From the NCBI GenBank assembly GCA_009914755.4, contig CP068257.2, positions 8,224,001 to 8,288,000 on the forward strand: DNA of 64,000 nt, written 5' to 3'. Each line of letters opens with the position of its first letter. The first letter of the stretch is position 1. The position numbers were made by a program, and so were the translations under genes. The notes under the pieces were generated by a model. That model was not told the DNA's origin. It saw only the letters and a program-made list of their open reading frames with translations, and ran no database searches. Shown one piece after another: positions 18,601 through 50,323 of the stretch. The stretch is from the human T2T-CHM13v2.0 reference genome, Homo sapiens.

Positions 18601-21275
18601 CTACAAAAAGACTGTTTCCAAACTGCTCAATCAAGAGAAAGTTTCAACCTGGTGAGTAGAAGTCACACATGACAAAATAGTTTCTCAGAAAGTATCTGTC
18701 TAGTTTTTATGTGAAGATATTTCCTATCACCCCAGAAGCCTCAATGGGCTCACAAATATTCCTTTGCAGATTCTACAAAACGACAGTTTCAAAACTGCTG
18801 AATCAAAAGAAAGGTTCAACTCTGTGAGATGAATGCACAGATCACAAATAAGTTTCTCAGAATGCTGCTGTCTAGTTTTTATGGGAAGATATTTCCTTTC
18901 CCACCATAGGCCTCAAAGCTCTCCAAATAGCCATTTGCAGATACTGTAAAAAGACTGTTTCCAAACTGCTGTATCAAAAGAAAGGTTGAACTCCATGAGT
19001 TGAATGCACACGTCACAAAGAAGTTTCTCAGAATGCTTCTGACTAGTTTTTATGTGAAGATATTTCCTTTTCCACTATAGGCCTCAAAGCGTTCCAAATA
19101 TCCACTTGCAGAAACTACAAATAGAGCGTTTCAGAACTGCTCAATCAAAAGAAAGGTTCAACTCTGTGAGATGAATGCAGACATCAAAAAGAAGTTTCTC
19201 AGAATGCTTCTGCCTTGTTTTTATGTGAAGATATTTCCTTTTTCACCATAGGCCTCAAAGCACTGGTAATATCCATTTGCAGATACTACAAAAAGACTGT
19301 TCCCAAACTGCTCAATAAAAAGAAAGTTTCAACTCTATGAGATAAAAGCAAATATCACAAAGAAGTTTCTCAGAAACTTTCTATCTAGTTTTTATGTGAA
19401 CATATTTCTTATCACCCCATAGACCTCAATCGGCTCACAAGTATCCTTCTGCAGATTGTAAAAAACTACTGTTTCCAAACCGCTCAATCACAGGAAAGGT
19501 TTAACTCTGTGAAATGAATGCATCCATCACAGAGAAGTTTCTCAGAATGCTTCCGTCTCGTTTTTATGTGAAGAAGATTCCTTTTCCACCATATTCCTCA
19601 TGCGCTCCAAAGAAACACTTGCAGATTCCGCTAAAAGAGTGTTTCAAAACTGCTCAATCAAAAGACAGGTTCTAGTCGGTGAGATGAATGCACACATCAC
19701 AAAGACGTTTCTATGAATGCTTCTGTCTGATTTATATTGAAGATATTTCCTTTTTCACCGTAGGCCTCAGAGTGCTTAAAATATCCATTTGCAGATACTA
19801 GAAAAGACTGTTTCCAAACTGCTCAATCAAAATAAAGTTCAACTCAGTGAGATGAATGCACACATCACCAAGACGATTCTGACAAAGATTCTGTCTCGTT
19901 TTTATGTGAAGATATTTCCTGTTTCCCCAGAGGCATCAATGGGCTCACAAATATTCCTTTGCATATTCTACAAAATGACTGTTTAGAAGGTGCTGAATCA
20001 AAAAAAAAGTTCAACAGTGTGAGATGAATGCGCCCATTCAACGGAAGTTTCTCAGAATTCTTCTATCTAGTTTTTATGTGAAGATATTTCCTTTTTCACT
20101 ATAGGCCAGAAAGTGCTCCAAATATCCACTTGCAGACTCTACAAAACGAGTGTATCCACACTGCTCAATCAAAAGAAAATTTCAACTGTGTGAGATGAAT
20201 GCACACATCAAAATAAATTTCTCCAAAACTTCTGCCTACTTTTTATGGGAAGATATTTCGTTTTTCAACGTAGGCCAGAAGCACTCCAAATATCAATTTG
20301 CAGATTCTACAAAAAGACTGTTTCCAAACTGCTCAATCAAGAGAAAGTTTCAACCTGGTGAGTAGAAGTCACACATGACAAAATAGTTTCTCAGAAAGTA
20401 TCTGTCTAGTTTTTATGTGAAGATATTTCCTATCACCCCAGAAGCCTCAATGGGCTCACAAATATTCCTTTGCAGATTCTACAAAACGACAGTTTCAAAA
20501 CTGCTGAATCAAAAGAAAGGTTCAACTCTGTGAGATGAATGCACAGATCACAAATAAGTTTCTCAGAATGCTGCTTTCTAGTTTTTATGGGAAGATATTT
20601 CCTTTCCCACCATAGGCCTCAAAGCTCTCCAAATAGCCATTTGCAGATACTGTAAAAAGACTGTTTCCAAACTGCTGTATCAAAAGAAAGGTTGAACTCC
20701 ATGAGTTGAATGCACACGTCACAAAGAAGTTTCTCAGAATGCTTCTGACTAGTTTTTATGTGAAGATATTTTCTTTTCCACAGTAGGCCTCAAAGCGCTG
20801 AAAATATCCACTTGAAGATTCTACAAATGAGAGTTTCAAAACTGCTCAAACAAAAGAAAGATTCAACTCTGTGAGATGAATGCACACATCACAAAGAAGT
20901 TTCTCAGAATGCTTCTGTCTAGTTTTATGTAAAGATATTTCCTTTTCTACTATAGGCCACAAAGCACTCCAAATATCAACTTGCAGATTCTGCAGAAAGA
21001 GTTTTTCAAAGCTGCTCAATCAAAAGAAAAGTTCAACTCTTTGAGATGAATGCACACATCAGGAAGTTCCTCAGAATGCTTCTATTTTTATGTGAAGATA
21101 TAGCCTTTTCTACCATAGACGACAAAACGCTCCAAATATCCCCTTGCAGTTTCTACTAAAAGAGTGTTTCCAAACTGCTCAATCAAAAGAAGTTTCAACT
21201 CTGTGAGATGAATGCACTCATCAATAAGAAGTTTCTCAGTAATTTTCTGTCTAGTTTTTATGTGAAGATATTTCC
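15658..21275. repeat. HOR copy 5, an expanded variant of 5,618 bp. It contains a 1,706-bp (10-monomer) internal tandem duplication.
   Basis: Anchors at 15640 and 21258 are 5,618 bp apart, which is 3,912 plus 1,706. ORFs at 18083/18444 recur identically at 19789/20150. At about 19050 the sequence jumps from HOR coordinate about 3390 back to about 1690. Confidence 0.85.
19051..20756. repeat. Second copy of the 10-monomer intra-HOR tandem duplication. The first copy is at about 17345-19050.
   Basis: Near-identical 1,706-bp blocks. Identical 65-aa and 71-aa ORF translations occur at 18083/19789 and 18444/20150. Confidence 0.8.
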
Positions 21276-24200
21276 TTTCCTACTATAGGCCTGAAAGTGC
21301 TCCAAATATCCGTTTGCAGATACTGCAAAAAGACTGTTTCCAAACTGCTCAATCAAAGGAAATGTCCAAATCTGTGAGTTGAATGCACGCATCTCAAAGA
21401 GATTACTCATAATGATTCTGTCTAGTTTTGATGTGAAGATATTTGCTTTTCCACCAGTGGCCTCAAACTCTCCAAATATCCACTTGCAGATTCTACAATA
21501 AGAGTGTTTCAAAACTGCTCAATCAAAAGAAAGGTTCAACACTGTGAGATGAATGCACACGTCACAAAGCACTTTCTTAGAATGCTTCTGTCTAGCTTTT
21601 ATGTGAAGATATTTCCTTTTTCACCATAGGCTGCAAAGCGCTCCAAATATCCCTTTCAGATTCTACAGAAAGAGTGTTTCAAAACTGTTCAATCAAAAGA
21701 GAAACTCAACTCTGGTGATGAATGCACGCATCACAAAGCAGTTTCTCATAATGTTTCTGTCTAGTTTTTATGTGAAGATATTTCATTTTCCACTATAGGC
21801 CGTAATGCACTCCTAATATCCACTTGCAGATTCTACAGAAAGACTGTTTGCAAACTGCTCAAACAAAAGAAAAGTTCAGCTCTGTGAGTTGAATGAGCAC
21901 ATCACAAAGAAGTTTCTCAGAATGCTTCTGTCTAGTTTTTATGTGAATATATTTCCTTTTCCACTATAGGCCGTAATGCGCTCCAAATATCCACCTGCAG
22001 ATTCTACAAAAAGACCGTTTCCAAAGTGCTCAATCAAAAGAAAAGTTCAACTCTGTGAGTTGAATGAGCACATCACAAAGAAGTTTCTCACAATGCTTCT
22101 ATCTAGTTTTTATGTGAATATATTCCCTTTTCCACCACAGGCCACAAACACTCCAAATATCCACTTGAAGATTCTACAAAAAGAGTGCTTCAAAAATGCT
22201 CAATCAAAAGAAAGGTTCAACTCTTTGAGATGGATGCACACATCACAAAGAAGCTTCTCAGAATGTTCCTGTCTAGTTTTTTTGTGAAGATATTTCCTTT
22301 TCCACCGTAGTCCTCAAGTCTCTCCAAATATCTACTTTCAGCATCTCCAAAAAGAGTGTTTTAAAACTGCTGTACCAAAGAAAGTTTCGTGTCTGAGATA
22401 TGACTGCATACAACACAGAGAAGTTTCTCAAAGTGCTTCTGTTTATTTTTTTTATGAAGATATTTCCTTTTCCACTATGGGCCACAGAGCGCTCCAAATA
22501 TTCACTGGCAGATTCTACAAAAAGAGTGTTTCAAAACTGCTCAATCAATAGAAAGTTTGAAGTCTGTGAGATGAATGCACACATCACAAAGGAGTTTCTA
22601 AGAATGCTTCCATCTGAATTTTATGTGAGGATATTTCCTTTTTCACCATAGGCCTCAATACACTCCAAATATCCATTTACAGATAATACAAATGACTGTA
22701 TCCAAACTGCTCAATCAAAAGAAAGTTCAACTGTGTATGATGAATGCACACATCACAAGGGTGTTTCTCAGAAAGTTTTTGTCTAGCTTTTAGGTGAAGA
22801 TATTTCTTATTTCCCCAGAGGTCTCAATGGGCTCTCAAATATTCCCTTTCATATTCTACTAAATGACTGTATCGAAGCTGCTCAATCAAAAGACGGGTTT
22901 AACAGTGTGAGACGAAAATACACCTTCCTAGGAAGTTTCTCAGAATTCTTCTGTCTAGTTTTTTATGTGAAGATATTTCCTTTTCCACTATAGGCCTCAA
23001 AGCGTTCCAAATATCCACTTGCAGATACTACAAATAGAGCGTTTCAAAACTGCTCAATCAAAAGAAAGGTTCAACTCTGTGAGATGAATGCAGACATCAA
23101 AAAGAAGTTTCTCAGAATGCTTCTGCCTTGTTTTTATGTGAAGATATTTCCTTTTTCACCATAGGCCTCAAAGCACTGGTAATATCCATTTGGAGATACT
23201 ACAAAAAGACTGTTCCCAAACTGCTCAATAAAAAGAAAGTTTCAACTCTATGAGATAAAAGCAAATATCACAAAGAAGTTTCTCAGAAAATTTCTATCTA
23301 GTTTTTATGTGAACATATTTCTTATCACCCCATAGACCTCAATCGGCTCACAAGTATCCTTCTGCAGATTGTAAAAAACTACTGTTTCCAAACCGCTCAA
23401 TCACAGGAAAGGTTTAACTCTGTGAAATGAATGCATCCATCACAGAGAAGTTTCTAAGAATGCTTCCGTCTCGTTTTTATGTGAAGAAGATTCCTTTTCC
23501 ACCATATTCCTCATGCGCTCCAAAGAAACACTTGCAGATTCCGCTAAAAGAGTGTTTCAAAACTGCTCAATCAAAAGAAAGGTTCTAGTCGGTGAGATGA
23601 ATGCACACATCACAAAGACGTTTCTATGAATGCTTCTGTCTGATTTATATTGAAGATATTTCCTTTTTCACCGTAGGCCTCAGAGTGCTTAAAATATCCA
23701 TTTGCAGATACTAGAAAAGACTGTTTCCAAACTGCTCAATCAAAATAAAGTTCAACTCAGTGAGATGAATGCACACATCACCAAGACGTTTCTGAGAAAG
23801 ATTCTGTCTCGTTTTTATGTGAAGATATTTCCTGTTTCCCCAGAGGCATCAATGGGCTCACAAATATTCCTTTGCATATTCTACAAAATGACTGTTTAGA
23901 AGGTGCTCAATCAAAAAAAAAGTTCAACAGTGTGAGATGAATGCGCCCATTCAACGGAAGTTTCTCAGAATTCTTCTATCTAGTTTTTATGTGAAGATAT
24001 TTCCTTTTTCACTATAGGCCACAAAGTGCTCCAAATATCCACTTGCAGACTCTACAAAACGAGTGTATCCACACTGCTCAATCAAAAGAAAATTTCAACT
24101 GTGTGAGATGAATGCACACATCAAAATAAATTTCTCCAAAACTTCTGCCTACTTTTTATGGGAAGATATTTCGTTTTTCAACGTAGGCCAAAAGCACTCC

Positions 24201-25188
24201 AAATATCAATTTGCAGATTCTACAAAAAGACTGTTTCCAAACTGCTCAATCAAGAGAAAGTTTCAACCTGGTGAGTAGAAGTCACACATGACAAAATAGT
24301 TTCTCAGAAAGTATCTGTCTAGTTTTTATGTGAAGATATTTCCTATCACCCCAGAAGCCTCAATGGGCTCACAAATATTCCTTTGCAGATTCTACAAAAC
24401 GACAGTTTCAAAACTGCTGAATCAAAAGAAAGGTTCAACTCTGTGAGATGAATGCACAGATCACAAATAAGTTTCTCAAAATGCTGCTGTCTAGTTTTTA
24501 TGGGAAGATATTTCCTTTCCCACCATAGGCCTCAAAGCTCTCCAAATAGCCATTTGCAGATACTGTAAAAAGACTGTTTCCAAACTGCTGTATCAAAAGA
24601 AAGGTTGAACTCCATGAGTTGAATGCACACGTCACAAAGAAGTTTCTCAGAATGCTTCTGACTAGTTTTTATGTGAAGATATTTTCTTTTCCACAGTAGG
24701 CCTCAAAGCGCTGAAAATATCCACTTGAAGATTCTACAAATGAGAGTTTCAAAACTGCTCAAACAAAAGAAAGATTCAACTCTGTGAGATGAATGCACAC
24801 ATCACAAAGAAGTTTCTCAGAATGCTTCTGTCTAGTTTTATGTAAAGATATTTCCTTTTCTACTATAGGCCACAAAGCACTCCAAATATCAACTTGCAGA
24901 TTCTGCAGAAAGAGTTTTTCAAAGCTGCTCAATCAAAAGAAAAGTTCAACTCTTTGAGATGAATGTACACATCAGGAAGTTCCTCAGAATGCTTCTATTT
25001 TTATGTGAAGATATAGCCTTTTCTACCATAGACCACAAAACGCTCCAAATATCCCCTTGCAGTTTCTACTAAAAGAGTGTTTCCAAACTGCTCAATCAAA
25101 AGAAGTTTCAACTCTGTGAGATGAATGCACTCATCAATAAGAAGTTTTTCAGTAATTTTCTGTCTAGTTTTTATGTGAAGATATTTCC
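21276..25188. repeat. HOR copy 6 (canonical length)
   Basis: Anchors at 21258 and 25171 are 3,913 bp apart. Confidence 0.85.
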
Positions 25189-28100
25189 TTTCCTACTATA
25201 GGCCTGAAAGTGCTCCAAATATCCGTTTGCAGATACTGCAAAAAGACTGTTTCCAAACTGCTCAATCAAAGGAAATGTCCAACTCTGTGAGTTGAATGCA
25301 CGCATCTCAAAGAGATTACTCATAATGATTCTGTCTAGTTTTGATGTGAAGATATTTGCTTTTCCACCAGTGGCCTCAAACTCTCCAAATATCCACTTGC
25401 AGATTCTACAATAAGAGTGTTTCAAAACTGCTCAATCAAAAGAAAGGTTCAACACTGTGAGATGAATGCACACGTCACAAAGCACTTTCTTAGAATGCTT
25501 CTGTCTAGCTTTTATTTGAAGATATTTCCTTTTTCACCATAGGCTGCAAAGCGCTCCAAATATCCCTTTCAGATTCTACAGAGAGAGTGTTTCAAAACTG
25601 TTCAATCAAAAGAGAAATTCAACTCTGGTGATGAATGCACGCATCACAGAGCAGTTTCTCATAATGTTTCTGTCTATTTTTTATGTGAAGTTATTTCATT
25701 TTCCACTATAGGCCGTAATGCACTCCTAATATCCACTTGCAGATTCTACAAAAAGACTGTTTGCAAACTGCTCAAACAAAAGAAAAGTTCAACTCTGTGA
25801 GTTGAATGAGCACATCACAAAGAAGTTTCTCAGAATGCTTCTGTCTAGTTTTTATGTGAATATATTTCCTTTTCCACTATAGGCCGTAATGTGCTCCAAA
25901 TATCCACCTGCAGATTCTACAAAAAGACTGTTTCCAAAGTGCTCAATCAAAAGAAAAGTTCAACTCTGTGAGATGAATGAGCACATCACAAAGAAGCTTC
26001 TCAGAATGTTTCTGTCTAGTTTTTTTGTGGAGATATTTCCTTTTCCACCGTAGTCCTCAAGTCTCTCCAAATACCTACTTTCAGAATCTCCAAAAAGAGT
26101 GTTTTAAAACTGCTGTACCAAAGAAAGTTTCATGTCTGAGTTATGACTGCATACAACACAGAGAAGTTTCTCAAAGTGCTTCTGTTTATTTTTTTTATGA
26201 AGATATTTCCTTTTCCACTATTGGCCACAGAGCGCTCCAAATATCCACTGGCAGATTCTACAAAAAGAGTGTTTCAAAACTGCTCAATCAATAGAAAGTT
26301 TGAAGTCTGTGAGATGAATGCACACATCACAAAGGAGTTTCTAAGAATGCTTCCATCTGAATTTTATGTGAGGATATTTCCTTTTTCACCATAGGCCTCA
26401 GTACACTCCAAATATCCATTTACAGATAATACAAATGACTGTATCCAAACTGCTCAATCAAAAGAAAGTTCAACTGTGTATGATGAATGCACAAATCACA
26501 ATGGTGTTTCTCAGAAAGTTTTTGTCTAGTTTTTAGGTGAAGATATTTCTTATTTCCCCAGAGGCCTCAATGGGCTCTCAAATATTCCCTTTCATATTCT
26601 ACTAAATGACTGTATCGAAGCTGCTCAATCAAAAGACGGGTTTAACAGTGTGAGACGAAAATACACCTTCCTAGGATGTTTCTCAGAATTCTTCTTTCTA
26701 GTTTTTTATGTGAAGATATTTCCTTTTCCACTATAGGCCTCAAAGCGTTCCAAATATCCACTTGCAGATACTACAAATAGAGCGTTTCAAAACTGCTCAA
26801 TCAAAAGAAAGGTTCAACTCTGCGAGATGAATGCAGACATCAAAAAGAAGTTTCTCAGAATGCTTCTGCCTTGTTTTTATGTGAAGATATTTCCTTTTTC
26901 AAAATAGGCCTCAAAGCACTGGTAATATCCATTTGCAGATACTACAAAAAGACTGTTCCCAAACTGCTCAATAAAAAGAAAGTTTCAACTCTAGCAGATA
27001 AAAGCAAATATCACAAAGAAGTTTCTCAGAAACTTTCTATCTATTTTTTATGTGAACATATTTCTTATCACCCCATAGACCTCAATCGGCTCACAAGTAT
27101 CCTTCTGTAGATTATGAAAAACTACTGTTTCCAAACCGCTCAATCACAGGAAAGGTTTAACTCTGTGAAATGAATGCATCCATCACAGAGAAGTTTCTCA
27201 GAATGCTTCCGTCTCGTTTTTATGTGAAGAAGATTCCTTTTCCACCATATTCCTCATGCGCTCCAAATAAACACTTGCAGATTCCGCTAAAAGAGTGTTT
27301 CAAAACTGCTCAATCAAAAGAAAGGTTCTAGTCGGTGAGATGAATGTACACATCCCAAAGAAGTTTCTATGAATGCTTCTGTCTGATTTATATTGAAGAT
27401 ATTTCCTTTTTCACCGTAGGCCTCAGAGTGCTTAAAATATCCATTTGCAGATACTAGAAAAGACTGTTTCCAAACTGCTCAATCAAAATAAAGTTCAACT
27501 CAGTGAGATGAATGCACACATCACCAAGACGTTTCTGAGAAAGATTCTGTCTCGTTTTTATGTGAAGATATTTCCTGTTTCCCCAGAGGCATCAATGGGC
27601 TCACAAATATTCCTTTGCATATTCTACAAAATGACTGTTTAGAAGGTGCTCAATCAAAAAAAAAGTTCAACAGTGTGAGATGAATGCGCCCATTCAAAGG
27701 AAGTTTCTCAGAATTCTTCTATCTAGTTTTTATGTGAAGATATTTCCTTTTTCACTATAGGCCACAAAGTGCTCCAAATATCCACTTGCAGACTCTGCAA
27801 AACGAGTGTATCCACACTGCTCAATCAAAAGAAAATTTCAACTGTGTGAGATGAATGCACACATCAAAATAAATTTCTCCAAAACTTCTGCCTACTTTTT
27901 ATGGGAAGATATTTCGTTTTTCAACGTAGGCCAAAAGCACTCCAAATATCAATTTGCAGATTCTACAAAAAGACTGTTTCCAAACTGCTCAATCAAGAGA
28001 AAGTTTCAACCCGGTGAGTAGAAGTCACACATGACAAAATAGTTTCTCAGAAAGTATCTGTCTAGTTTTTATGTGAAGATATTTCCTATCACCCCAGAAG

Positions 28101-28550
28101 CCTCAATGGGCTCACAAATATTCCTTTGCAGATTCTACAAAACGACAGTTTCAAAACTGCTGAATCAAGAGAAAGGTTCAACTCTGTGAGATGAATGCGC
28201 AGATCACAAATAAGTTTCTCAGAATGCTGCTGTCTAGTTTTTATGGGAAGATATTTCCTTTTCCACCATAGGCCTCAAAGCTCTCCAAATATCCATCTGC
28301 AGATACTGTAAAAAGACTGTTTCCAAACTGCTGAATCAAAAGAAAGGTTGAACTCCATGAGTTGAATGCACACGTCACAAAGAAGTTTCTCAGAATGCTT
28401 CTGACTAGTTTTTATGTGTAGATATTTTCTTTTCCACCATAGGCCTCAAAGCGCTGAAAATATCCACTTGAAGATTCTACAGAAAGAGAGTTTCAAAACT
28501 GGTCAAACAAAAGAATGATTCAACTCTGTGAGATGAATGCACACTTCACA
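25189..28550. repeat. HOR copy 7, a shortened variant. It lacks one monomer (junction about 25990-26000) and its last monomers fall within the 4-monomer copy 7/8 junction deletion at about 28548-28556.
   Basis: Anchors 22400 and 26143 are 3,743 bp apart, which is 3,914 minus 171. At about 25996 the first half of one monomer is fused in register to the second half of the next-but-one monomer. At about 28550 the sequence jumps from HOR coordinate about 3540 to about 290 of the next unit. Confidence 0.75.
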
Positions 28551-29500
28551 AAGCACTTTCTTAGAATGCTTCTGTCTAGCTTTTATTTGAAGATATTTCC
28601 TTTTTCACCATAGGCTGCAAAGCACTCCAAATATCCCTTTCAGATTCTACAGAGAGAGTGTTTCAAAACTGTTCAATCAAAAGAGAAATTCAACTCTGGT
28701 GATGAATGCACGCATCACAGAGCAGTTTCTCATAATGTTTCTGTCTATTTTTTATGTGAAGTTATTTCATTTTCCACTATAGGCCGTAATGCACTCCTAA
28801 TATCCACTTGCAGATTCTACAAAAAGACTGTTTGCAAACTGCTCAAACAAAAGAAAAGTTCAACTCTGTGAGTTGAATGAGCACATCACAAAGAAGTTTC
28901 TCAGAATGCTTCTGTCTAGTTTTTATGTGAATATATTTCCTTTTCCACTATAGGCCGTAATGCGCTCCAAATATCCACCTGCAGATTCTACAAAAAGACT
29001 GTTTCCAAACTGCTCAATCAAAAGAAAAGTTCAACTCTGTGAGATGAATGAGCACATCACAAAGAAGTTTCTCAGAATGCTTCTATCTAGTTTTTATGTG
29101 AATATATTTCCTTTTCCACCACAGGCCACAAACACTCCAAATATCCACTTGAAGATTCTACAAAAAGAGTGCTTCAAAAATGCTCAATCAAAAGAAAGGT
29201 TCAACTCTTTGAGATGGATGCACACATCACAAAGAAGCTTCTCAGAATGTTTCTGTCTAGTTTTTTTGTGAAGATATTTCCTTTTCCACCGTAGTCCTCA
29301 AGTCTCTCCAAATATCTACTTTCAGAATCTCCAAAAAGAGTGTTTTAAAACTGCTGTACCAAAGAAAGTTTCATGTCTGAGATATGACTGCATACAACAC
29401 AGAGAAGTTTCTCAAAGTGCTTCTGTTTATTTTTTTTATGAAGATATTTCCTTTTCCACTATGGGCCACAGAGCGCTCCAAATATCCACTTGCAGATTCT
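28551..29500. repeat. HOR copy 8. It is 5'-truncated by the junction deletion, and the array terminates at HOR coordinate about 1240.
   Basis: 28960..29271 and 29384.. match copy 6 at 21976.. and 22400... Similarity to the HOR is lost from about 29490-29530 onward. Confidence 0.75.
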
Positions 29501-32500
29501 ACAAAAAGAGTGTTTCAAACCTGCTCAATCAAAAGGAAGATTTTACTCTATGAGATGAATGGACACATCACAGAGAAGTTTCTCAATATGCTTTTGTCTA
29601 GTTTTTATGTTAAGATGTTTCCTTTTCCATTCCATGAAGTAAAGTGATGCAAATATCCATTTGTAGATATTACAAAAAGACTGCTTCCAAACTCCTCGAT
29701 CAAAAGAAAGGTTCAACTCTGTGAGTTGAATGCACACATCACAAAAAATTTTCTCAGAATGCTTCTGTCTAGTTTTTATGTGAAGATATTTCCTTTTCCA
29801 CCATAGGCCTCAAAGCACTCAAAATGTCCGTTTGCAGACACTACAGAAAGACGCTTTCCAAGCAGCTCAATCAAAGGAAATGTTCAGCTCTGTGAATTGA
29901 ATGCACATCACAAAGTAGTTTCCCAGAATGTTTCTTTCCTGTATATATGTGAAGATATTTCCTTTTCCAATATAGGCCTCAAAGCACTCCAAATATCAAC
30001 TTGCAGATTCTGTGAAAAGGGTGTTTCAAACTTCCCAATCACAGGAAATGTTCAACTCTGTGAGATGAATGCACACAACATGAAGAATTTACTCAGAATG
30101 CTTCTGTCTGGTTTTTATTTGAAGATATTTCCTTATCCACTATAGGCCACAAAGCGCTCCATATATCCACTTGCAGATACTACAAAAAGAGTGTTTCCAA
30201 ACTGCTCAATCAAAAGAAAGGTTCAACTCCGTGAGTTGAATGCGCACATAACAAAGAATTTTCTCAGAATGCTTCTGTCTAGTTTTCATGTGAAGATATT
30301 TCCTTTTCCACCACATGCCTCAAAGCGCTCCAAAAATCCACAAGCAGATTCCATAAATAGAGTATTTCAAAACTGCTGAATCAAAAGAAAGTTTCAGCTC
30401 TGTGAGATGAATGCACACTTCACAATGAAGATTCTCAGAATGCTTCTGTCTAGTTTTTATGTGAAGATAATTCCTTTTCCACATTAGGCCTCAAAACTCT
30501 TCAAATATGCCTTGCAGATTCTACAAAAAGAGTGTTTCAAAACTGCTCAATCGAAAGAAAGGTTCAAGTCTGTGAGATGAATGCACATCTCAGAAAGACG
30601 TTTCTCAGAATGCTTCTGTCTAGTTTTTATTTGAAGATTTATCCTTTTCCACAATAGGCTGCAAAGTGCTCCAAATATCCACTTACAGATTCTTCAAAAA
30701 GAGTGTTTCCAGACTGCTCAATCAAAAGAAAGGTTCAACTCTGTTAGTTGAATGCACACATTACAACAAAGTTTATCAGAATGCTTCTGTCTAGTTTTTA
30801 GGTGAATATATTCCCTTTTAAACTGTAGTCTGCAAAGCACTCCAAATATTCACTTGCAGATTCTACAAAAAAAGTGATTCAAAATTGCTCAATCAAAAGA
30901 AGGGTTCAACAGTGTTAGTTGAATGCACACATCACAAAGAAGTTTCTCAGAATGCTTCTGTCTAGTTTTTATGTGAAGATATATCCTTTTCCACCGTAGG
31001 CCCCAAAGCACTCCAAATATCCACTGGTAGAGTCTACAAATGTGCGTTTCAATACTACTCAATCAAAAGAAACGTTCAACTTTGTGAGATGAAAGCACGC
31101 ATCACAAAGTTGTTTCTCAGAATGCTCTGTCTAGTTTTTATGTGAAGATATTTCCTTTTATACCATAGGCCCCAAAGTGTTCCAAATATCCACCTTCAGA
31201 TTCTACAAAAAGTGTGTTTCAAAACTGCTCAACCAAAAGAAAGGTTCAAACCTGTGAGATGAATGCACACATCACAAAGGAGTTTCTCAGAATGCTTCTG
31301 TCTAGTTTTTGTGTGAAGTTATTTCCTTTACCACCATAGGACTGAAAGAGCTCCAAATGTCCACTTGCAGAATCTACAAAAAGAGTGTTTCAAAATTGCT
31401 CAATCAAAATAAAAGTTCAACTCTGTTAGAAGAATGCACACATCACAAAAATTTCACAGAATGCTTCTGTCTATTTTTTATGTGAAGATATTTCCTTTTC
31501 CACTTGAGACTGGAAAGAGCTTCAAATATCCAATTGCAGATTCTGCAAAAGAGTGTTTCAAAACTGCTCAATCAAAGGAAAGGTACAATTCAGTGAACTG
31601 AATGTGCACATCAGAAGGAAGTTTCTTAGAATACCTCTGTGCAGTTATTATGTGAAGATATTTACTTTTCCACCATAGGCCCCAAGGCTCTCCAAATATC
31701 CAATTGCAGATTCAACAAAAAGTGTGTTTCAAAACTGCTCAATCAAAAGAAAGGTTCAACTCTGTGGGAGGAATGCTCACATCACACACAGGTTTCTCAG
31801 AATGCTTCTGTCTTTTTTCTGTGTGAAGATATTTCCTTTTCCACTAGAGGATGCAAAGCGCTCAAAATATCCACTTGCAGATTTTACAAAAGGGTGTTTC
31901 TAAAATGCTAAATCAAAATAGTTTCAAGTCTGTGAGATGAATGCATATATCCCAAAGAAGTTTCTCAGAATGCTTCTGTCTAGTTTTTATGTGAAGATAT
32001 AAAATTTTCCACTATAGGCCACAAAGCGCTTCAAATATCCACTTGCATATTCTTCAAAAAGAGTGTTTCAAAAGTGATGAATCAAAAGAAAAGTTCAACT
32101 GTGTGAGATGAATGCACACATCACAAAGAAGTTTCTCAGAATGCTTCTGTCTAGTTTTATGTGCAGATATTTCCTCTACAATAGGGAACAAAGCACTCCA
32201 AATATCCACTTACAGATTCTACAAAAGCGGTGTTTCAAAACTGCTCAATCAAAACAAAGTTTCAACTCTGTGAGATCATTGCACACATCATAAAGAAGTT
32301 TCTCAGAATGCTTCTGTGTAGTTTTTATGTGAAGATATTTCCTTTTCCACCATAGGCCTCAAAGTGTTCCATATATCTACCTGCAGATTCTAGAAAAAGA
32401 GTGTTTCAAAACTACTTAATCAAAAGAAAGGTTCAACCCAGTGAGATGAATGCACTCGTCACAGAGAAGATTCCCAGAATGCTTCTGTCTAGTTTTTATG

Positions 32501-32989
32501 TGAAGATATTTCCTTTTTCACTATAGGAGGCAAAGCTTTCCAAATATCCAATTGCGGATTCCACAAAAAAAGTGTTCCAAAACTGCTCAATGAAAGGAAA
32601 TGTTGAATTATGTGAGATAAAAGCACACATCATAAAGGAGTTTCTAAGAATGCTTTTGTCTGGTTTTTATGTGAAGATATTTCCTTTTCAACTATAGGCC
32701 TCAAAGCGCTCCAAATATACATTTGCAGATGCTACAAAAAGAATGTTTCCAAACTCCTCAAAGATATGTTCAACTTTGTGAGTTGAATGCACATATCACA
32801 AAGTAGTTTCTCAGAATGCTTCTGTCCAGATTTTATTTGAAGATATTTCCTTTACCAACATAGGCCTCAAAGCTCTCCAAATATCGAATTGCAGATTCCA
32901 CAAAAACAGTGTTTGAATACTGCTCAAACAAAAGAAAGGTTCAACCCTGTGAGATGAATGCATACATCACACAGAAGTTTCTCAGAATG

Positions 32990-35760
32990 CTTCTGTGTAG
33001 TTTTTATGTGAAGATATTTCCTTTACCACCATAAGCCTCAAAGAACTCCAAATATCCACTTACAGATTCTACAAAAAGAGTGCTTCAAAACTGCTCAACC
33101 AAAAGAAAGGTTCAACTCTTTGTGATGAATGCACACATCACAAAGTAATTTTTCAGAATGCTTCTGTCTAGTTTTTATGTGAATATACATCCTTTTCCAC
33201 TATAGGCCACAAAGTGCTCCAAACACCCACTTGCGGATTCTACAAAAAGAGTGTTTTAAACCTCCTCAACAAAAAAGTTTCAACTCTGTGAGGTGAATGC
33301 ACACCTCACAAAGAACATTCTCAGAATGCTTCTCTCTAGTTTTTATGTGAAGATATTTGCTTTTCCACCATAGGCCACAAGGCGCGCCAAGTATCCACTT
33401 GCAGATTTTACAAAAATAGTGTTTCAAAACTGCTCAAACAAAAGAAAGGTTCAACTCTGTGAGTTGAATGCACACATCACAAAGAAGTTTCTCAGAATGC
33501 TGCTGTCTAGCTTTTATCCAAAGTTATTTCCTTTTCCACTATACTCCACAAAGCCCTCTGAATATCCACTTGCAGATTCTACAAAAGAAGTGTTTCAAAA
33601 CTGCACAATCAAAAGAAAGTTTCGACTCTGTGAGTTGTATGCACACATCAGAAAGAAGTTTCTCAGAATGCTTTTGTGTAGTTTTTATGTGAAGATATTT
33701 CCTTTTCCACCATAGGCACCAAAGCTCTCCAAATATCCACTTGCAGATTATACAAAAAGAGGGATTCAAAACTGCTCAATCAAAAGAAAGGTTCAACTCT
33801 GTGAGTTGAAGGCACACATAACAAAACCGTTTCTCAGAATGCTTCTCCATAGTTTTTATATGAAGATATTTCCATTTCCACCATTCTCTCCAAAGTGCTC
33901 CAAATATCCACTTGCAGATTCTATAAAAAGAGTGTTTCAAAACTGCTCAATGAAAAGAAAGTTTCACCTCTGTTAGATGAATGGACACATCACAAAGACG
34001 TTTCTCAGAATGCTTCTGTCTAGTGTTTACGTGAAGATATTTCCTTTTCCACCACACGACTCAAAGCACTCTAAATATGCACTTGCAGATTCTACCAAAA
34101 GAGTGTTTCAAAAATGTTCAATCAAAGGAAAGTTTCAAATCTGTGAGATGTACGCACACATCACAAAGAAGTTTCTCAGAATGCTTCTGCCTTGTTTTTA
34201 TGAGAAGATAATTCTTTTCCACCATAGGCCCCAAAGGGCTCCAAATATCCACCGCAGATCCTACAAAAAGTGTTTAAAAAATGCTAAGTCAATAGAAAGT
34301 TTAAACTCTGTGAGATGTATGCACACATAACAAAGAAGTTTCTCAGAATGCTTCTCTCTAATTTTTATGTGAGGATATTTCCTTCTCCACCATAGGCCTG
34401 AAAGCACTCGAAATATCCCCTGGCAGATCCTAAAAAAAAGAGCGATTCAAAACTGCTCAATCAAAAGAAATTTTCAAATCTGAGATGAATGCGCACATCA
34501 CAAAGAAGTTTCTCAGGGTACTTCTGTCTAGTTTTTATGTGAAGATATTTCCTTTTCCACCATACTCATCAAAGTGTTCCAAATATCCACTTGCACATTC
34601 TACAAAGAGAGTGTTTCAAAACTGCTCAATCAAAAGAATGGTCCAACTATGTGAGATGAATGCACACATCACAAAGAAGTATCTCAGAATGCTTCTGTGT
34701 AGTTTTTATGTGAAGATATTTCCTTTACCACCATAGGCCTCAAAGCGCTCCAAATATCCACTTACAGATTCTCCAAAAAGCGTGTTTCAAAACTGCTCAA
34801 TCAAAAGAAAGGTTGAACTTTTTGAGATGAATGCACACATCAAAAATAAGTTTTTCAGAATGCTTCTGTCTAGTTTTTATGTGAATATACATCCTTTTCC
34901 ACTATAGGCCACAAAATGTTCCAAACACCCGCTTTCAGACTCTACAAAAAGAGTGTTTCAAACCTCCTCAATAAAAAAAGTTAAAACTCTGTGATGTGAA
35001 TGAACACAGCACAAAGAAGATTCTCAGAATACTTCTGTCTAGTTGTTACGTGAATATATTTGCTTTTCCACCATAGGCCGCAAAGTGCACCAAATATCCA
35101 CTTGCAGATTTTACAAAAGCAGTGTTTCAAAACTGCTCAATCAAAAGAAAGTTTCAACTCTGTGAGTTGAATGCACACATCACAAAGAAGTTTCTCAGAA
35201 TGCGTCTGTCTAGCTTTTATGCAAAGTTATTTCCTTTTCCACAATACTCCACAAAGCCCTCTGAGTATCTACTTGCAGATTCTACAAAAAGAGTGTTTCA
35301 AAACTGCATATTCAAAAGAATGGTTCAACTCTGCGAGTTGTATGCACACATCACAAAGAAGTTTCTCAGAGTGCTTTTGTATAGTTTTTATGTGAAGATA
35401 TTTCTTTTCACCAGAGGCCCCAAAATGCTCCAAATATCCACTTGCAGATTTTACAAAAAGAGGGATTCAAAACTGCTCAATCAAAAGAAAGGTTCAACTC
35501 TGTGAGTTGAATGCACACATCACAAAGACGTTTCTCACAATGCTTCTCCATAGTTTTTATATGAAGATATTTCCATTTTCACCATTCTCTCCAAAGCGTT
35601 CCAAATATCCACTTGCAGATTCTACAAAAAGAGTGTTTCAAAACTATTCAATCGAATTAAAGTTTCTTCTCTTTGAGAAGAATGCACATATCACAAAGAA
35701 GTTTCTCAGAATGCTTCTGTGTAGTTTTTATGTGAAGGTATTTCCTTTTACACCATAGGT
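32990..35760. repeat. Relic periodicity of about 1.7 kb (10 monomers) within the monomeric alpha satellite, about 90% identity between repeats
   Basis: 33170-33700 aligns to 34870-35400, and 33977.. aligns to 35507.. (ORFs 33419/35122 and 33468/35171 are homologous) at an offset of about 1,703 bp, with many substitutions. Confidence 0.6.
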
Positions 35761-38700
35761 CAAAAAGGGCTCCAAATATTCACTTGCAGATTCTACATAA
35801 AGAGAGTTTCAAAACTCCTCTATCAAAAGATAGGTACAACGCTGAGTTCAATGCACACATCTCAAAGAAGTTTCTCAGAATGCTTCTGTTTAGTTTTTAT
35901 GTGAAGATATTTCCATTTCTACAATAGGCCTCAAAACGCTCCAAGTATCCACTTGTAGATTTTACTAAAAGAGTGTTTCCAACTGTTCAATCAAAATAAA
36001 TTTACAACTGTGAGATGAATGCACAAGTCACACAGAACTTTCTCATAATGCTTCTGTGTAGTTTTTATGTGAAGATATTTCCTTTTCCACAATGGGCCTC
36101 AAAGTGCTCTATGAGATGAATGCACACGTCAAAAGACATTTCTCAGAATGCTTCTGTGTAGTTTTTATGTGAAGATATTTCCTTTTCCACCATAGGCCAC
36201 AAAGGCCTCCAAATATCCACTTGCAGATTCTACAAAAAGAGAGTTTCAAAATTGCTCAAACAAAAGATAGGTTCAACTCTGTGATCTGAATGCACTCATC
36301 ACAAACAAGCTCTTCAGAATGCTTCTGTGTAGTTTTTATGTGAAGATATTTCCTTTTCCACAATAGGCCTCTAAGCACTACAAATATCCACTTGCAGATT
36401 CTACAAATAGTGGTTTTCAAAACTGCTCAATCAATAGAAATCTTCATCAACGTGTGTTGAACGAACATGTCACAAAGAAGTTTCTCAGAATGCTTCTGTG
36501 TAGCTTTATATGAAGATATTTCCTTTTCCACCATAGGCCTCAGTGCACTCCAAATATCTACTTGCAGATTATACAAAAAGTGTGTTTCAAAATTGCTCAA
36601 TCAAAAGAAAGTTGAACTCTGTGAGATGAATCCACACATTGCAAAGAAGTTTCTCAGAATGCATCTGTGTTGTTTTTATGTGAAGATATTTTCTTTTCCA
36701 CAATAGGCCTCAAGGGGCTCCAAATATCCACTTGCAGATTCTACAAAAAGACTGTTTCAAAACTGCTCAGTGAAAAGAAAGGTTCAACTCTCTGAGATGA
36801 ATGCACACATGACAATGAAGTTTCTCAGAATGCTTCTGTGTAGTTTTTATGGGAAGTTATTTCCTTTTCCACCAGAAGCCACAAAGGGCTCCAAATATCC
36901 ACTTGCAGATTCTACAAAAAGAGAGTTTGAAAACTGTGCAATTAAAAGATAGGTTCAAATTTGTGATTTGAAGGCACACATCAGAAAGAAGTTTCTCAGA
37001 ATGCTTCTGTGTAGATTTTATGTGAAGATATATCCTTTTCCACCATAGGCCTCAATGTGCTCCAAATATCCACTTAGAGATATTACAAAAACAGTGTTTG
37101 AAAACTGCTCAATAAAAAGAAAAGTTCAACTCTGTGAGATGAACACACACATCGCAGAAAGTTTGTCTGAATGTTTCTGTGTTGTTTTCATGTGAATATA
37201 TTTCCTTTTCCACAATAGGCCTCAAAGTGCTCCAAATATCCACTTGCAGATTCTACAAAAAAGAATGTGTCAAAACTGCTCAATCAAAAGCAATGTTCAA
37301 CTCCTTGAGATTAATGTACACATCACAAAAAAGTTTCTCAGAATGCTTCCATGTAGTTTTTATGTGAAGTCATTTCCTTTTCCAACACAGGACTCAAAAG
37401 GCTCCAAATATCCACTTGAAGATTCTACAAAAATAATGTTTCAAAACGCTCAATCAAAAGAAATGTTGAACTCTGTGAAATGAATGCACACATAACCAAG
37501 AAATTTTTTCAGAATGCTTCTGTGTAGCTTTTAAGCGAAGATATTACATTTTCCACCACAGGCTGCAACAGGCTCTAAATATCCACTTGCAGATTCTACA
37601 AAAAGAGATTTTCAAAGCTTCTCAATAAAAAGATAAGTTCAACTCTGTGAGTTGAATGCACACATCACAAAGAAGTTTCTTTGAATGCTTCTGTGTAGTT
37701 TTTATGTGAAGATATTACCTTTTACACCATAGGCCTCAAAGCGCTCCAAATATCCACCTGCAGATTCCAAAAAAAGAGAGTTTCAAAACTGCTTATCAAA
37801 AGACAGGTTCAACTCCGTGAGTTGAATGCACACATCACAAATAAGTTTCTCAGAATGCTTCTGTGTATTTTTTATAGGAAGATATTTCCTTTTCCTCAAT
37901 ATGCCACATAGCACTGCAAATATCCACTTGCAGATCGCACTAAGAGTATTTCCAAACTGCACAGTCAAAAGAAAGGTGAAATGAATGCACATATTGCAAA
38001 AAGTATCTCAGACTCTTTTGTGTAGTTTTTATTTGAAGATATTTTCTTTTCCACAATAGGCCTCAAAGCTCTCCAAAGATCCACTTGCAAATTCTACAAA
38101 AGAGTGTTTCAAAACTGCTCCATCAAAAGAAAGATTCAACTCTGTCAGATGAATGCGCACATCACAAGATAGTTTGTCAGAATGCTTCTGTGTAGTTTTT
38201 ATGTGAAGATATTTCCTCTTCCACCTTAGGCCGCAAAAGGCTCCACATATCCACTTGCAGTTTCTGAAAAAATAATGTTTCCAAACTGGTCAATCAAAAG
38301 AAAGTTTCAACTCTGTGAGTTGAATGCACACATCATAAAGAAGTTTCACAGAATTCTCCTGTGTAGTTTCTATGTGAAGATATTTCCTTTTCCACAATAG
38401 GCCTCAAAGCGTTCCAAGTATCCACTTGCAGATTATACAAAAAGATTGTTTCAAAACTGCTCAATCAAAAGATTGGTTCAACTCTGTGAGAGGAATGCAC
38501 ACATCCCAAATAAGTTTCTCAGAATGTTTCTGTGTAGTTTTTATGTGATAATATTTCCTTTTTCCACCGTAGGCTGCAAAGGGTTACAAATATACACTTG
38601 CAGAGTATCCAATAAGAGAGGTTCGAAAGTGCTCAATCAAAAAATAGGTTGAATTCTGTGAGTTCAATGCACACATCACAAAGAAGTTGCTCAGAATTCT

Positions 38701-41700
38701 ATTGTGTAGTTTTTATGTGAAGATATTTAATTTTGCAAAATAGGCCTCAAAGCACACCAAGTATCCAATGGCAGATTCTACAATAAGAGTGTTTTAAATC
38801 TGTTCAATCAAAAGAAAGGTTCAACTCTGTGAGATGAATACACACATCACAAAGAAGTTTCTCAGAATGCTTCTGTGTAGTTTTTATGTGAAGATATTTC
38901 CTTTTCCAAAATAGGCCTTAAAGCCCCCGAAGTATCCACTTGCAGATTCTACAAAAAGACTCTTTCAACACTGCTCAATCAAAAGAAAGCTTCAACTCTG
39001 TGAGATGAAGGCACACATCACAAATAAGTTTCTCAGAATGCTTCTGGGTAGTTTTTATGTGAAGAAATTTGCTTTTCCAAAATAGGCCCCAAAGCCATCC
39101 AAATATCCACTTTCAGATTCTCCTAAAGGGATTTTCCAAACTGCTCAATCAAAAGAAAGGTTCAACACTGTGAGATGAAAGCACACATAACAAAGAAGTT
39201 TCTCTGAATTCTTCTGTGTAGTTTTTATGTGAAGATATTTCCTTTTCCACCATAGGCCACAAAGGGCTCCAAATATCCACTTGCAGATTTGACAAAAAGA
39301 GAGATTCAAAACTGCTCAATCAAAAGATAGTTTCAACTCTGTGAGTTGAATGCACACATCACAAAGAAGTTTCTCTGAATGCTTTTGCTTAATTTCTATG
39401 TGAAGATATTCCCTTTTCTACCACAGGCATCAAAACGCTCCAAATATCCACTTGAAGATTCTACAAAAAGAGTGTTTCCAATCTGCTCATTCAAAAGAAA
39501 GGTTAAAATCTGTGAGATGAATTCACACATCACAAAGAAGTTTCTCAGAATGCATCTGCGTAGTTTTTATGTGGAGATATTTCCTTTTCTACCTTAGGCC
39601 TCAAAGTGCTCCAAATATCCACTTGCATATGCTACAAAAAGAGTGTTTCAAAACTGCTCAATCAAAACATATGTTCAGCTCTGTGAGATGAAAGCACACA
39701 TCACAAAGACGTTTTTGAGAACGCTTCTGTGTAGTTTTGATGGGAAGATAGTTCCTTTTTCACAATAGGCCTCAAAGCGCTCCAAATATCCAGTTTCAGA
39801 TTCTTCAAAAAGAGTGTTTCAAAACTGCTCAATGAAAAGAAAGATTCAACTCTGTGAGATGAATGCACACATCACAATGTAGTTTCTCAGAATGCTTCTG
39901 TGTAGTTTTTATGTGAAGATATTTCCTTTTCCACAATAGACCTCAAATCTCTCCAAATATCTACTTCCTGATTCTACAAAAAGTGTTTTTCCAAACTTCT
40001 CAATCAAAAGCAACGTTCAACTCTTTGAGATTAATGCACACATCCAAAGAAGTTTCTCAGAATGCTTCTGTGTAGTTTTTATGTGAACATATTTCCTTTT
40101 CCACCATTGGCCACAATCGGCTCCTTATACCCACTTCCAGATTCTACAAAAAGAGAGTGTCAAAACTGCTCAATCAAAAGATCAGTTCAACTCTGTGAGT
40201 TGAATGCAGACATCACAAAGGAGTTTCTCAGAATGTCTCTGTGTAGTTTTTAGGTGAAGATCTTTCATTTTCTACAATAGGCCTAAATGTGCTCCAAGTA
40301 TCCACTTGCAGATTCTACAAAAGGAGTTTTTCAAAACTGCTCAAACAAAAGAAAGGTTCAACTTTGTGAGATGAATGCATACATCCCAGAGAAGTTTCTC
40401 AGAATGCTTCTGTGTAGTTTTTATGTGAATGTATCTCCTGTTTCACCATATGCCGCAAAGGGCTCCAAATAGCAACTTGCAGTTTCTACAAAAAGAGTGT
40501 TTCAAAACTTCTCAATCAAAACAAATTTCAACTCTTTGAGATTAATGCATGACTCACAAAGAAGTTTCTCAGAATGTTTCTGTGTAGTTTCTATCTAAAG
40601 ATATTTCCTTTTCTAATATAGGCTGCAAAGGGCTCCAAATATCCAGTTGCGTATTCTACAAAAACAGTGTTTCAAAACTGCACAATCAAAAGAAAAGTTC
40701 ATCTCTGTGAGATGAAAGCACACATCACAAAGTTTCTCAGAATGCTTCCGTGTAGTTTTTATGTGAAGATATTCTCTTTTCCACAACAGGCTTGAAATCC
40801 CTCCAAGTATCCACTTGCAGATTCTACAAAGAGAGTGTTTCAAAACTGCTCAATCATAAGAAAGGTTCAAATCTATGAGATGAATGCACACATCACAAAG
40901 AAGATTCTCAGAATGCTTCTGTGTAGTATTTGTATCAGGATATTTCCTTTTCCTCCATAGGATACAAAGGGTTTCAAATATCCACTTGCAGATTCTACAA
41001 AAAGAGAAATTCAAAACTGCTCAATCAAAAGATAGGTACAACTCTGTGAGTTGAATGCACACATCACAAAGAAGTTTCTTTGAATGCTTCTTTGTAGTTT
41101 TTATGGGAAGATAAATCCTTTTCCACCATAGGCCTAAAATATCTCCAAATATCCACTTGCAGATTCTACAAAGCCAATGTTTCAAATCTGATCAATCATA
41201 AGATAGGTTAAACTCTGTGAGATGAAAGCGCACATCACAAAAAAGTTTCTCAGAATGCTTCTGTATAGTTTTTATTTGAAGATATTCCCTTTTTCTCCAT
41301 TGGCCACTAAGATCTCCCAATATCCACCTGCAGATTCTACAAAAAGAGAGATTCAAAACTACTCAAGCAAAAGATAAGTTCAATTCTGTGAGTTTAATGC
41401 ATACATAAAAAAGAAGTTTCTCAGAATGCTTCTGTGTAGTTTTTATTTGAAGATATTTCCTTTTCCACCATAGGCTGCAAAGGGCTCAAAATATCCACTT
41501 GCTGATTTTACAAAAAGAGAGATTCAAAACTGCTCAATCAAAAGGTATGTTGAAATCTATGCGTTGAATGCACTCATCACAAGGAAGTTCTCAGAATGCT
41601 TTTGTCTAGTGTTTATGTGAAGATATTTCCTTTTCCACAAAAAGCCTCAAAACGCTCCAAATATCCACTTGCAGATTCTACAAACAGGTTATTTCAAAAC

Positions 41701-50306: not shown

Positions 50307-50323
50307 CAGAGTACTGCTGTGTA
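50307..50323. repeat. Putative left target-site duplication of the L1 (cagagtactgctgtgta)
   Basis: This 17-bp alpha-satellite segment sits immediately before the poly(A). It is re-encountered at 56495-56511 (cagtttgcttctgtgta, 13/17 identical) before the monomer continues (gtt.ttatgtgag). Confidence 0.5.

What the first reader, a model, noticed from the sequence alone, without database searches (positions are those of the whole stretch)
29440..29900. Sharp edge of the homogeneous HOR array and transition into divergent monomeric alpha satellite
Up to about 29490 the sequence is more than 98% identical to other HOR copies. Within about 50 bp (gtgtttcaaacctgctcaatcaaaaggaagattttactctatgagatgaatggacacatcacagag...) it becomes an unrelated divergent monomer, and no 3.9-kb periodicity reappears for the remaining 34 kb. 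The array ends mid-unit, at HOR coordinate about 1240. HOR-to-monomeric junctions are the boundaries of the active-type centromere core and are informative about array evolution. They are also where assemblies often collapse or break.
Basis: seen in the sequence. Interest (0 to 1): 0.55.

Follow-up and report, generated by a model that had tools for sequence, protein, structure and literature searches.

The report
Edge of inactive chr21p alpha-satellite array
The sharp edge is real, but it is the already published end of a small, inactive 23-monomer alpha-satellite repeat array on the short arm of human chromosome 21, not a boundary of the working centromere, so it is ordinary.

Summary
Observation confirmed. 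A 23-monomer (3,914 bp) alpha-satellite HOR runs from window position 1 to about 29,480. Copies are about 98.7% alike. The HOR ends inside a single 171-bp monomer: diagnostic bases place the switch between 29,472 and 29,490. The remaining 34 kb has no 23-monomer periodicity.

Interpretation only partly right. The HOR monomers match the published T2T-CHM13 chr21 "23/25mer" consensus. The window shows the same terminal variant copies. Four published coordinates map onto monomer ends with one offset, so the window is very probably chr21:8,224,001-8,288,000, and the edge is that array's published end (8,253,585).

This array is about 73 kb, lies about 2.7 Mb from the active 340-kb 11-mer array, has no CENP-B box, and consists only of A-type monomers. 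Literature classes it SF4+. It is an inactive "pseudocentromere", not an active-type core.

The flank also has local duplications and a full-length L1. The junction is an in-register hybrid monomer, best explained by homologous exchange within the conserved part of the monomer.

Already known; low interest.

The parts
1..29471 (-). Homogeneous 23-monomer (3,914 bp) alpha-satellite HOR array. This is the right-hand ~29 kb of the chr21p 23/25-mer array. Monomers are reverse-complemented relative to the usual alpha orientation.
   Evidence: Lag spectrum. Monomer classes. 93-100% identity to the published t1-t23 consensus, minus strand, in order.
17324..20736 (-). Tandem duplication of 10 monomers (t23, t1-t9), at 17,324-19,030 and 19,031-20,736. 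It produces the single 33-monomer unit (lag 5,619 between flanking monomers).
   Evidence: In-register junction at about 19,030. It matches the published variant copy lacking t10-t22 and the published copy starts that lie 5,619 bp apart.
25833..26173 (-). Site of the t18 deletion: a t17 monomer joined in register to t19.
   Evidence: It matches the published variant lacking t18.
28393..28563 (-). Hybrid t10/t14 monomer marking an in-register 4-monomer deletion (t11-t14).
   Evidence: Alignment. It matches the published last variant lacking t11-t14.
28564..29414 (-). Terminal partial HOR unit, t15-t19.
29415..29585 (-). Terminal hybrid monomer, in the published monomer phase. The t20 sequence extends to 29,471 and flank-type sequence begins at 29,491. 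The full 171-bp length and the phase are kept.
   Evidence: Its end, 29,585, equals the published array end 8,253,585 minus 8,224,000.
29472..29490 (.). Breakpoint interval of the HOR/monomeric junction. It lies in the conserved CGCTCCAAATATCCACT stretch of the monomer.
   Evidence: Diagnostic-site analysis. Alignment.
29491..50323 (-). Divergent A-type monomeric alpha satellite. Pairwise identity is about 80%; the median best match is 88%. Two local duplications are present: 33,010-33,861 with 34,712-35,562, and 42,641-43,495 with 44,008-44,862.
50324..56488 (-). Full-length antisense L1 retrotransposon inserted in the monomeric flank. Its ORFs are broken.
   Evidence: Composition shift. Poly-T at the left end and L1 5' end at the right end. 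RVT_1 domain, E = 5.7e-45.
56489..64000 (-). Divergent alpha satellite with an old 27-monomer-lag duplication (56,864-59,251 with 61,466-63,852, 84-96% identical).

Best explanation
The feature is the true right-hand end of a small, inactive (pseudocentromeric) 23/25-monomer alpha-satellite HOR array on the short arm of human chromosome 21. The array lies at T2T-CHM13 chr21:8,180,952-8,253,585, and the window is very probably 8,224,001-8,288,000.

The array is built only of A-type monomers and is classed SF4+ in the literature. It abuts an unrelated, older-looking layer of divergent A-type monomeric alpha satellite that carries an L1.

Shown:
- The join is a single in-register hybrid monomer: t20 sequence up to 29,471 and flank-type sequence from 29,491.
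- The three rearrangements in the last 14 kb of the array have the same anatomy.

Inferred:
- The edge was made by homologous (unequal) exchange, or template switching, between two non-allelic monomers within their conserved core. This is the same process that made the three nearby rearrangements.
- Homogenisation is weaker at the array end, so variants accumulate there.

The feature has no role in kinetochore positioning.
For: Identity of the locus:
- All 23 published consensus monomers hit the window in order at 93-100% (the consensus is).
- The window's variant copies (10-monomer duplication, t18 missing, t11-t14 missing, end before t20-t23) are exactly the five published terminal variants.
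- Published coordinates 8,233,839, 8,237,753, 8,243,372 and 8,253,585 map to monomer ends at 9,839, 13,753, 19,372 and 29,585 with a single offset of 8,224,000.

Inactive status:
- The active chr21 array is the 340-kb 11-mer at 10.96-11.30 Mb.
- There are no CENP-B boxes, and 340 of 340 monomers are A-type.
- The 3.9-kb model and the hg38 chr21 ~7.99-Mb BAC clones are classed SF4+.

Junction anatomy:
- One switch point lies in 29,472-29,490, and the monomer length and phase are preserved.
- The three internal junctions are in-register hybrids of the same kind.
- Identity to the consensus falls from 99.4% to 98.4% towards the edge.

Different layers:
- The flank is not collinear with the HOR.
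- The HOR-specific monomer class t2/t5/t8/t22 is absent from the flank. Its motif TCAATGGGCTC occurs 21 times in the HOR and 0 times in the flank.
Against: - The exchange mechanism is inferred from anatomy only. No parental sequences of the event are available.
- SF4+ status comes from the literature, not from a classification run here.
- The two sources name the 3.9-kb HOR differently: pTRA-1/D21Z3, pTRA-2/D21Z5.
- CENP-A occupancy and read support were not examined.
- Identification of the window rests on coordinate and structure congruence with a paper, not on direct alignment to the assembly.
Confidence: 0.85

Rival explanations
1. One reading: the junction is the boundary of the active-type centromere core HOR array with its monomeric flank.
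For: HOR copies are homogeneous (about 98.7%) and change abruptly to monomeric alpha satellite. This is the pattern seen at the edges of live arrays.
Against: - The array is about 73 kb with 19 copies, and lies about 2.7 Mb from the 340-kb active 11-mer array.
- There is no CENP-B box and no B-type monomer.
- The literature classes the family as SF4+. It describes small homogeneous HOR arrays as pseudocentromeres or inactive arrays.
Confidence: 0.03
2. Assembly artefact: a collapse or false join at about 29.48 kb truncates an array that really continues.
For: - Satellite array edges are error-prone.
- The last partial unit is 98-100% identical to earlier copies.
- Metagenome scans found no independent copy of the junction. 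This is uninformative, because those collections are not human.
Against: - The clone-based hg38 has the same array with nearly the same size: 74,877 bp and 20 copies, against 72.6 kb and 19 copies.
- BAC CT476838 carries the HOR over only 1-69 kb of its 129 kb, so a clone sequence also crosses an array edge.
- The junction is a clean in-register hybrid, like three internal junctions that an independent analysis of CHM13 also reports.
- The variant units near the edge are distinctive enough to anchor long reads.
Confidence: 0.04
3. In-situ birth boundary: the HOR arose by amplification of 23 local monomers, and the junction is the original limit of that amplification. On this reading the flank continues the ancestral sequence.
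For: - Both sides are A-type alpha satellite in the same orientation and phase.
- The literature views such arrays as recent amplifications of dead alpha satellite.
Against: - The flank monomers after the junction do not follow t20-t21-t22. Only 1 of 165 consecutive steps is collinear.
- The best 4-monomer diagonal scores 0.081, below the shuffled mean of 0.095.
- The t2/t5/t8/t22 monomer class is absent from all 166 flank monomers.
Confidence: 0.06
4. Non-homologous insertion or segmental-duplication breakpoint: a pre-formed HOR block was transposed into a monomeric array, for example by acrocentric short-arm exchange, and 29.48 kb is the insertion end.
For: - HOR and flank are compositionally unrelated layers.
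- The same HOR family is reported on chromosomes 13, 14 and 21.
Against: - The join preserves monomer length and phase exactly. It lies in the most conserved 19 bp of the monomer.
- That is expected for homology-driven exchange and unlikely for a random end join.
Confidence: 0.08

Closest known systems
T2T-CHM13 chr21 23/25-mer alpha-satellite HOR array, 8,180,952-8,253,585 (Gluncic et al. 2025, PMC12385485); hg38 counterpart 'reverse 23mer' at chr21:7,970,290 (PMC6718397)
   Same: It is the same locus. The window shows the same 23 monomer types, the same reverse orientation, the same 3,914/5,619-bp spacings, the same five terminal variant copies and the same end coordinate.
   Different: Nothing differs. 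Beyond the parts of that paper read here, this report adds the base-level breakpoint (29,472-29,490), the in-register hybrid nature of all four junctions, and the non-collinearity of the flank.
SF4+ pseudocentromeric HORs of the acrocentric short arms: 3.9-kb HOR, reference model GJ212124/GJ211961, D21Z5/pTRA-2, BACs FP236243 and CT476838 (Shepelev et al. 2015, PMC4496801)
   Same: A 3.9-kb unit at hg38 chr21 ~7.99 Mb, with 98.3% inter-copy identity. It is homogeneous, low in copy number, A-type only, and lies outside the live array.
   Different: SF class was not recomputed here. Another paper attributes a chr21 23-mer to D21Z3/pTRA-1, so the probe name is unsettled.
Abrupt HOR-to-monomeric junctions and layered flanks of live centromeres, e.g. 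DXZ1 on Xp (Schueler et al. 2001, from my own knowledge); the layer model in PMC2729386 and PMC9549924
   Same: A homogeneous HOR abuts divergent monomeric alpha satellite. The flank is pJalpha-type, carries L1 insertions, and homogeneity decays towards the array edge.
   Different: Here the HOR is not the live SF1-3 core. It is a small inactive array of an old family, 2.7 Mb from the active array.
Clusters of alpha satellite on chr21p (Ziccardi et al. 2016, Chromosome Res 24:421; cited; its content is recalled from memory and was not read here)
   Same: It describes isolated alpha-satellite clusters dispersed over several Mb of 21p, some containing HORs.
   Different: The paper is not held in the library, so the correspondence of this window to one of its clusters (Mp1-Mp5) was not checked.

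Membership tests
Alpha-satellite higher-order repeat (HOR) array | Tandem ~171-bp monomers | tested here: met
   340 monomers, mostly 165-171 bp, all in one orientation.
Alpha-satellite higher-order repeat (HOR) array | A multi-monomer unit repeated with about 95% or higher identity between copies, while monomers within a unit differ by 20-40% | tested here: met
   23-monomer unit. Inter-copy identity is 98.7%; within-unit identity is 77.5%.
T2T-CHM13 chr21 23/25-mer array (this exact locus) | Monomers match the published t1-t23 consensus, in order | tested here: met
   All 23 types match at 93-100% in ascending order on the minus strand. The consensus text is a machine-read PDF, which lowers the apparent identity.
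T2T-CHM13 chr21 23/25-mer array (this exact locus) | Published terminal variant structure and coordinates | tested here: met
   Variants lacking t10-t22, t18, and t11-t14 plus t20-t23 are reproduced. Four published coordinates fit one offset of 8,224,000.
Active (live) centromere core HOR, SF1-3 | B-type monomers with CENP-B boxes alternating with A-type monomers | tested here: not met
   0 strict CENP-B boxes on either strand. 340 of 340 monomers are closer to the A-type site.
Active (live) centromere core HOR, SF1-3 | The largest HOR array of the chromosome, which binds kinetochore proteins | tested here: not met
   Size and position come from the literature: about 73 kb at 8.18-8.25 Mb, against the active 340-kb 11-mer at 10.96-11.30 Mb. 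CENP-A binding itself is not testable with these tools.
Pseudocentromere / inactive homogeneous HOR of an old family (SF4+) | A small homogeneous HOR array outside the live array | tested here: met
   Homogeneity. Size and location from the matched published coordinates. Definition.
Pseudocentromere / inactive homogeneous HOR of an old family (SF4+) | Monomers assigned to SF4+ classes by comparison with reference monomer classes | not tested
   No reference class consensus was available. The SF4+ label is taken from PMC4496801 for the 3.9-kb model and the chr21 BAC clones. A-type-only composition is consistent with it.
Monomeric (non-HOR) alpha-satellite layer | No higher-order periodicity; monomers 70-90% alike | tested here: met
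   Pairwise identity is 80% and the median best match is 88%. There is no 23-monomer lag. The exceptions are three local segmental duplications at lags of 8, 10 and 27 monomers.
Monomeric (non-HOR) alpha-satellite layer | Tolerates old L1 insertions, which are rare in HOR arrays | tested here: met
   A full-length L1 with broken ORFs lies at 50,324-56,488 in the flank. There is none in the HOR. The general pattern is stated.

The most novel reading that the evidence does not exclude
The most novel reading not excluded is that this end of the array is an actively recombining zone peculiar to acrocentric short arms. The evidence would be the cluster of four in-register exchange junctions in the last 14 kb, including the terminal HOR/monomeric hybrid. 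On this reading the hybrid junction is either polymorphic among haplotypes or shared with the chr13/14 paralogous arrays. That would make it a marker of inter-chromosomal exchange rather than a fixed layer boundary.
Probability: 0.12. Interest if true: 0.3.

Novelty: already known. Interest (0 to 1): 0.1.

Why it matters
It matters little. The array, its variant copies and its end coordinate are already published for this assembly. Abrupt HOR-to-monomeric junctions are a textbook feature of primate centromeric regions.

The useful outcome is a correction: this is an inactive short-arm array, not the centromere core. A base-level description of the junction as an in-register hybrid monomer is added. 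That fits homology-driven exchange as the process that trims and reshapes array ends.

Tried and rejected
- Collinearity of the flank with the HOR, to test in-situ origin. Best-position increments gave 1 of 165, and normalised 4-monomer diagonals fell below the shuffled null. Rejected.
- CENP-B boxes, strict and fuzzy, on both strands. None found.
- Independent copies of the junction. Two exact-match scans of metagenome contigs with 84-nt and 66-nt junction probes found nothing. This was expected, since those collections are not human, and it is uninformative.
- The hg38 '33mer HOR' as the source of the window's 33-monomer unit. Its published consensus belongs to a separate hg38 array at 10.86 Mb with a 5,639-bp unit. 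The window's 33-monomer unit is simply a 10-monomer duplication within the 23-mer.
- Reading Ziccardi et al. 2016 and the journal version of Altemose et al. 2022. Neither is held; the bioRxiv version of the latter was used instead.
- Recomputing the suprachromosomal family. No reference monomer-class consensus was found in the supplements examined.
- The protein, RNA-family, phage, plasmid and bacterial tools are irrelevant to a primate satellite. Only one Pfam scan was run, on the L1.
Full report
**What is in the window**

Tandem Repeats Finder reports 171-bp repeats over 1-50,329 and 56,500-64,000. A profile search splits the window into 340 alpha-satellite monomers, all in one orientation. 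That orientation is the reverse complement of the conventional one. A 6.2-kb block at about 50.3-56.5 kb has a different base composition. It is not alpha satellite.

**Checking the observation**

- Shared 24-mers pile up at lags of 3,913-3,915 bp and their multiples.
- In 500-bp bins, 73-100% of 20-mers recur at long range up to 29,500. Beyond that, only 12-57% recur in most flank bins; a few bins inside a local duplication reach 73-92%.
- Clustering the monomers gives a 23-monomer unit.
- Corresponding monomers of canonical copies are 98.7% identical on average. Monomers within one unit are 77.5% identical.
- 100-bp windows at 29,251-29,450 are 98-99% identical to earlier copies. The following windows fall to 90%, 82%, 69% and 57%.
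- I aligned the junction monomer (29,440-29,610) with the seven copies of HOR position 7. It is identical up to 29,490, has scattered differences at 29,491-29,536, and differs densely from 29,540.
- I then used only sites where position 7 differs from the flank majority. The monomer has the HOR state at 29,460, 29,468 and 29,471, and a non-HOR state at 12 of 13 sites from 29,491 on. The switch therefore lies in 29,472-29,490.
- The 84-nt junction sequence is unique in the window.
- The flank shows no excess at lags of 22-24 monomers.

The array is not regular up to its edge. After four canonical units come the following:
- A 33-monomer unit. It is a tandem duplication of 10 monomers, at 17,324-19,030 and 19,031-20,736.
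- One canonical unit.
- A unit lacking one monomer.
- A jump that deletes four monomers, at a hybrid monomer at 28,393-28,563.
- A last partial unit of five monomers.

Each of these junctions keeps the monomer phase. Identity to the position consensus drifts from 99.4% to 98.4% towards the edge.

The flank is essentially monomeric. Pairwise identity is 80% and the median best match is 88%. It still contains three local duplications:
- 42,641-43,495 with 44,008-44,862: 8-monomer lag, 94-99% identical.
- 33,010-33,861 with 34,712-35,562: 10-monomer lag, about 92% identical.
- 56,864-59,251 with 61,466-63,852: 27-monomer lag, 84-96% identical.

**Where the window comes from**

A literature search for 23-monomer HORs led to Gluncic et al. 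2025 (PMC12385485). That paper describes a '23/25mer' array at T2T-CHM13 chr21:8,180,952-8,253,585.

- Its supplementary consensus monomers t1-t23 hit the window's HOR monomers at 93-100%. They are in ascending order on the minus strand.
- The paper says the last five copies are variants lacking t10-t22, t18, and t11-t14 plus t20-t23. That is exactly the structure found here.
- It names copies at 8,237,753 and 8,243,372. These are 5,619 bp apart, the lag seen in the window.
- With one offset of 8,224,000, the published positions 8,233,839, 8,237,753, 8,243,372 and 8,253,585 fall on monomer ends at 9,839, 13,753, 19,372 and 29,585.

I conclude that the window is chr21:8,224,001-8,288,000 of T2T-CHM13. 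The feature is then the published end of that array. This is an inference from congruence, not a direct alignment.

**Why it is not the centromere core**

- The same paper places the major 11-mer array at 10,963,339-11,302,559.
- Altemose et al. give the chr21 active array as 340 kb.
- The present array is about 73 kb and lies about 2.7 Mb away on the short arm.
- The window contains no CENP-B box on either strand, and all 340 monomers carry the A-type site. From established knowledge of alpha-satellite families, live SF1-3 arrays combine A-type and B-type monomers. The review read notes CENP-B boxes in live arrays and pJalpha sites in the monomeric flanks.
- Shepelev et al. 2015 class the 88,022-bp, 3.9-kb-unit reference model (GJ212124/GJ211961) as SF4+. 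They name BACs FP236243 (hg38 chr21:7,997,247-8,001,000) and CT476838 as its genomic representatives.
- Gluncic et al. 2019 list the hg38 counterpart at chr21:7,970,290, with 20 copies and 74,877 bp.
- In the field's terms, a small homogeneous HOR array of this kind is a pseudocentromere, an inactive array.
- The probe name is inconsistent between sources: pTRA-1/D21Z3, pTRA-2/D21Z5.

**How the junction probably arose**

The flank does not continue the HOR.
- Only 1 of 165 consecutive flank steps is collinear with the unit.
- The best 4-monomer diagonal is below the shuffled expectation.
- The distinctive t2/t5/t8/t22 monomer class is absent from all 166 flank monomers. Its motif TCAATGGGCTC occurs 21 times in the HOR and never in the flank.

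So the two sides are different layers, not an amplified segment next to its parent.

The join nevertheless preserves the 171-bp length and the phase. It lies in the conserved CGCTCCAAATATCCACT stretch. This is the same anatomy as the three internal rearrangements.

I infer a homologous exchange or template switch between non-allelic monomers. The inference is not shown directly. Such events appear to accumulate at the array end, where homogenisation is weaker.

**Misassembly**

Reads are not available here, and the metagenome scans were empty. Three points argue against a gross collapse:
- An independent clone-based assembly has nearly the same array length.
- A BAC carries the HOR over only part of its length.
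- An independent analysis of the assembly reports the same variant structure.

**Verdict**

The 'active core' framing is wrong. The feature is already described. Interest is low.

Noticed in passing
window 50,324-56,488 (minus strand): A full-length (~6.16 kb) antisense L1 lies in the monomeric flank. It has a poly-T run at its left end and the L1 5'-UTR start at its right end. There is an RVT_1 domain in 51,646-53,097, and the ORFs are broken. The flanking alpha sequence shows only a degenerate possible target-site duplication.
   Followed up: partly
window 42,641-43,495 and 44,008-44,862: A recent local duplication of five monomers at an 8-monomer (1,367 bp) lag. Three monomers are 99.4% identical, inside otherwise 80%-identical monomeric satellite.
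   Followed up: partly
window 56,864-59,251 and 61,466-63,852: An old duplication at a 27-monomer (4,602 bp) lag, 84-96% identical. It runs to the window end, so it may be part of a divergent HOR that continues beyond the window.
   Followed up: partly
window 33,010-33,861 and 34,712-35,562: A duplication at a 10-monomer (~1,702 bp) lag, about 92% identical.
   Followed up: partly
window 36,071-36,170 and 46,021-46,054: A truncated monomer about 100 bp long with an internal ~70-bp deletion; Tandem Repeats Finder sees a 100-bp period at 36,011-36,204. Separately, a perfect 17-bp tandem duplication (ATTAGTTTCTCAGAATG x2) makes a 189-bp monomer.
   Followed up: no
window 474-815 and the same position in every HOR unit (t16, t17): Two adjacent HOR monomers are 91-94% identical to each other, far above the 77.5% unit average. 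This suggests the 23-mer grew from a 22-mer by a single-monomer duplication.
   Followed up: no
literature (PMC6718397 versus PMC4496801): The 3.9-kb chr21 HOR is attributed to D21Z3/pTRA-1 in one paper and to D21Z5/pTRA-2 (X55367, GJ212124) in another. The probe identity of this array is unsettled in the sources read.
   Followed up: partly
window 1,181-29,490, HOR position 7 copies: Copies fall into two variant types. For example, C...A at two sites in the copies at 1,181, 16,837, 22,456 and 26,199, against T...G at 5,096, 9,010 and 12,925. The HOR part of the terminal hybrid monomer is 100% identical to the copy at 1,181, not to its nearest neighbours.
   Followed up: no
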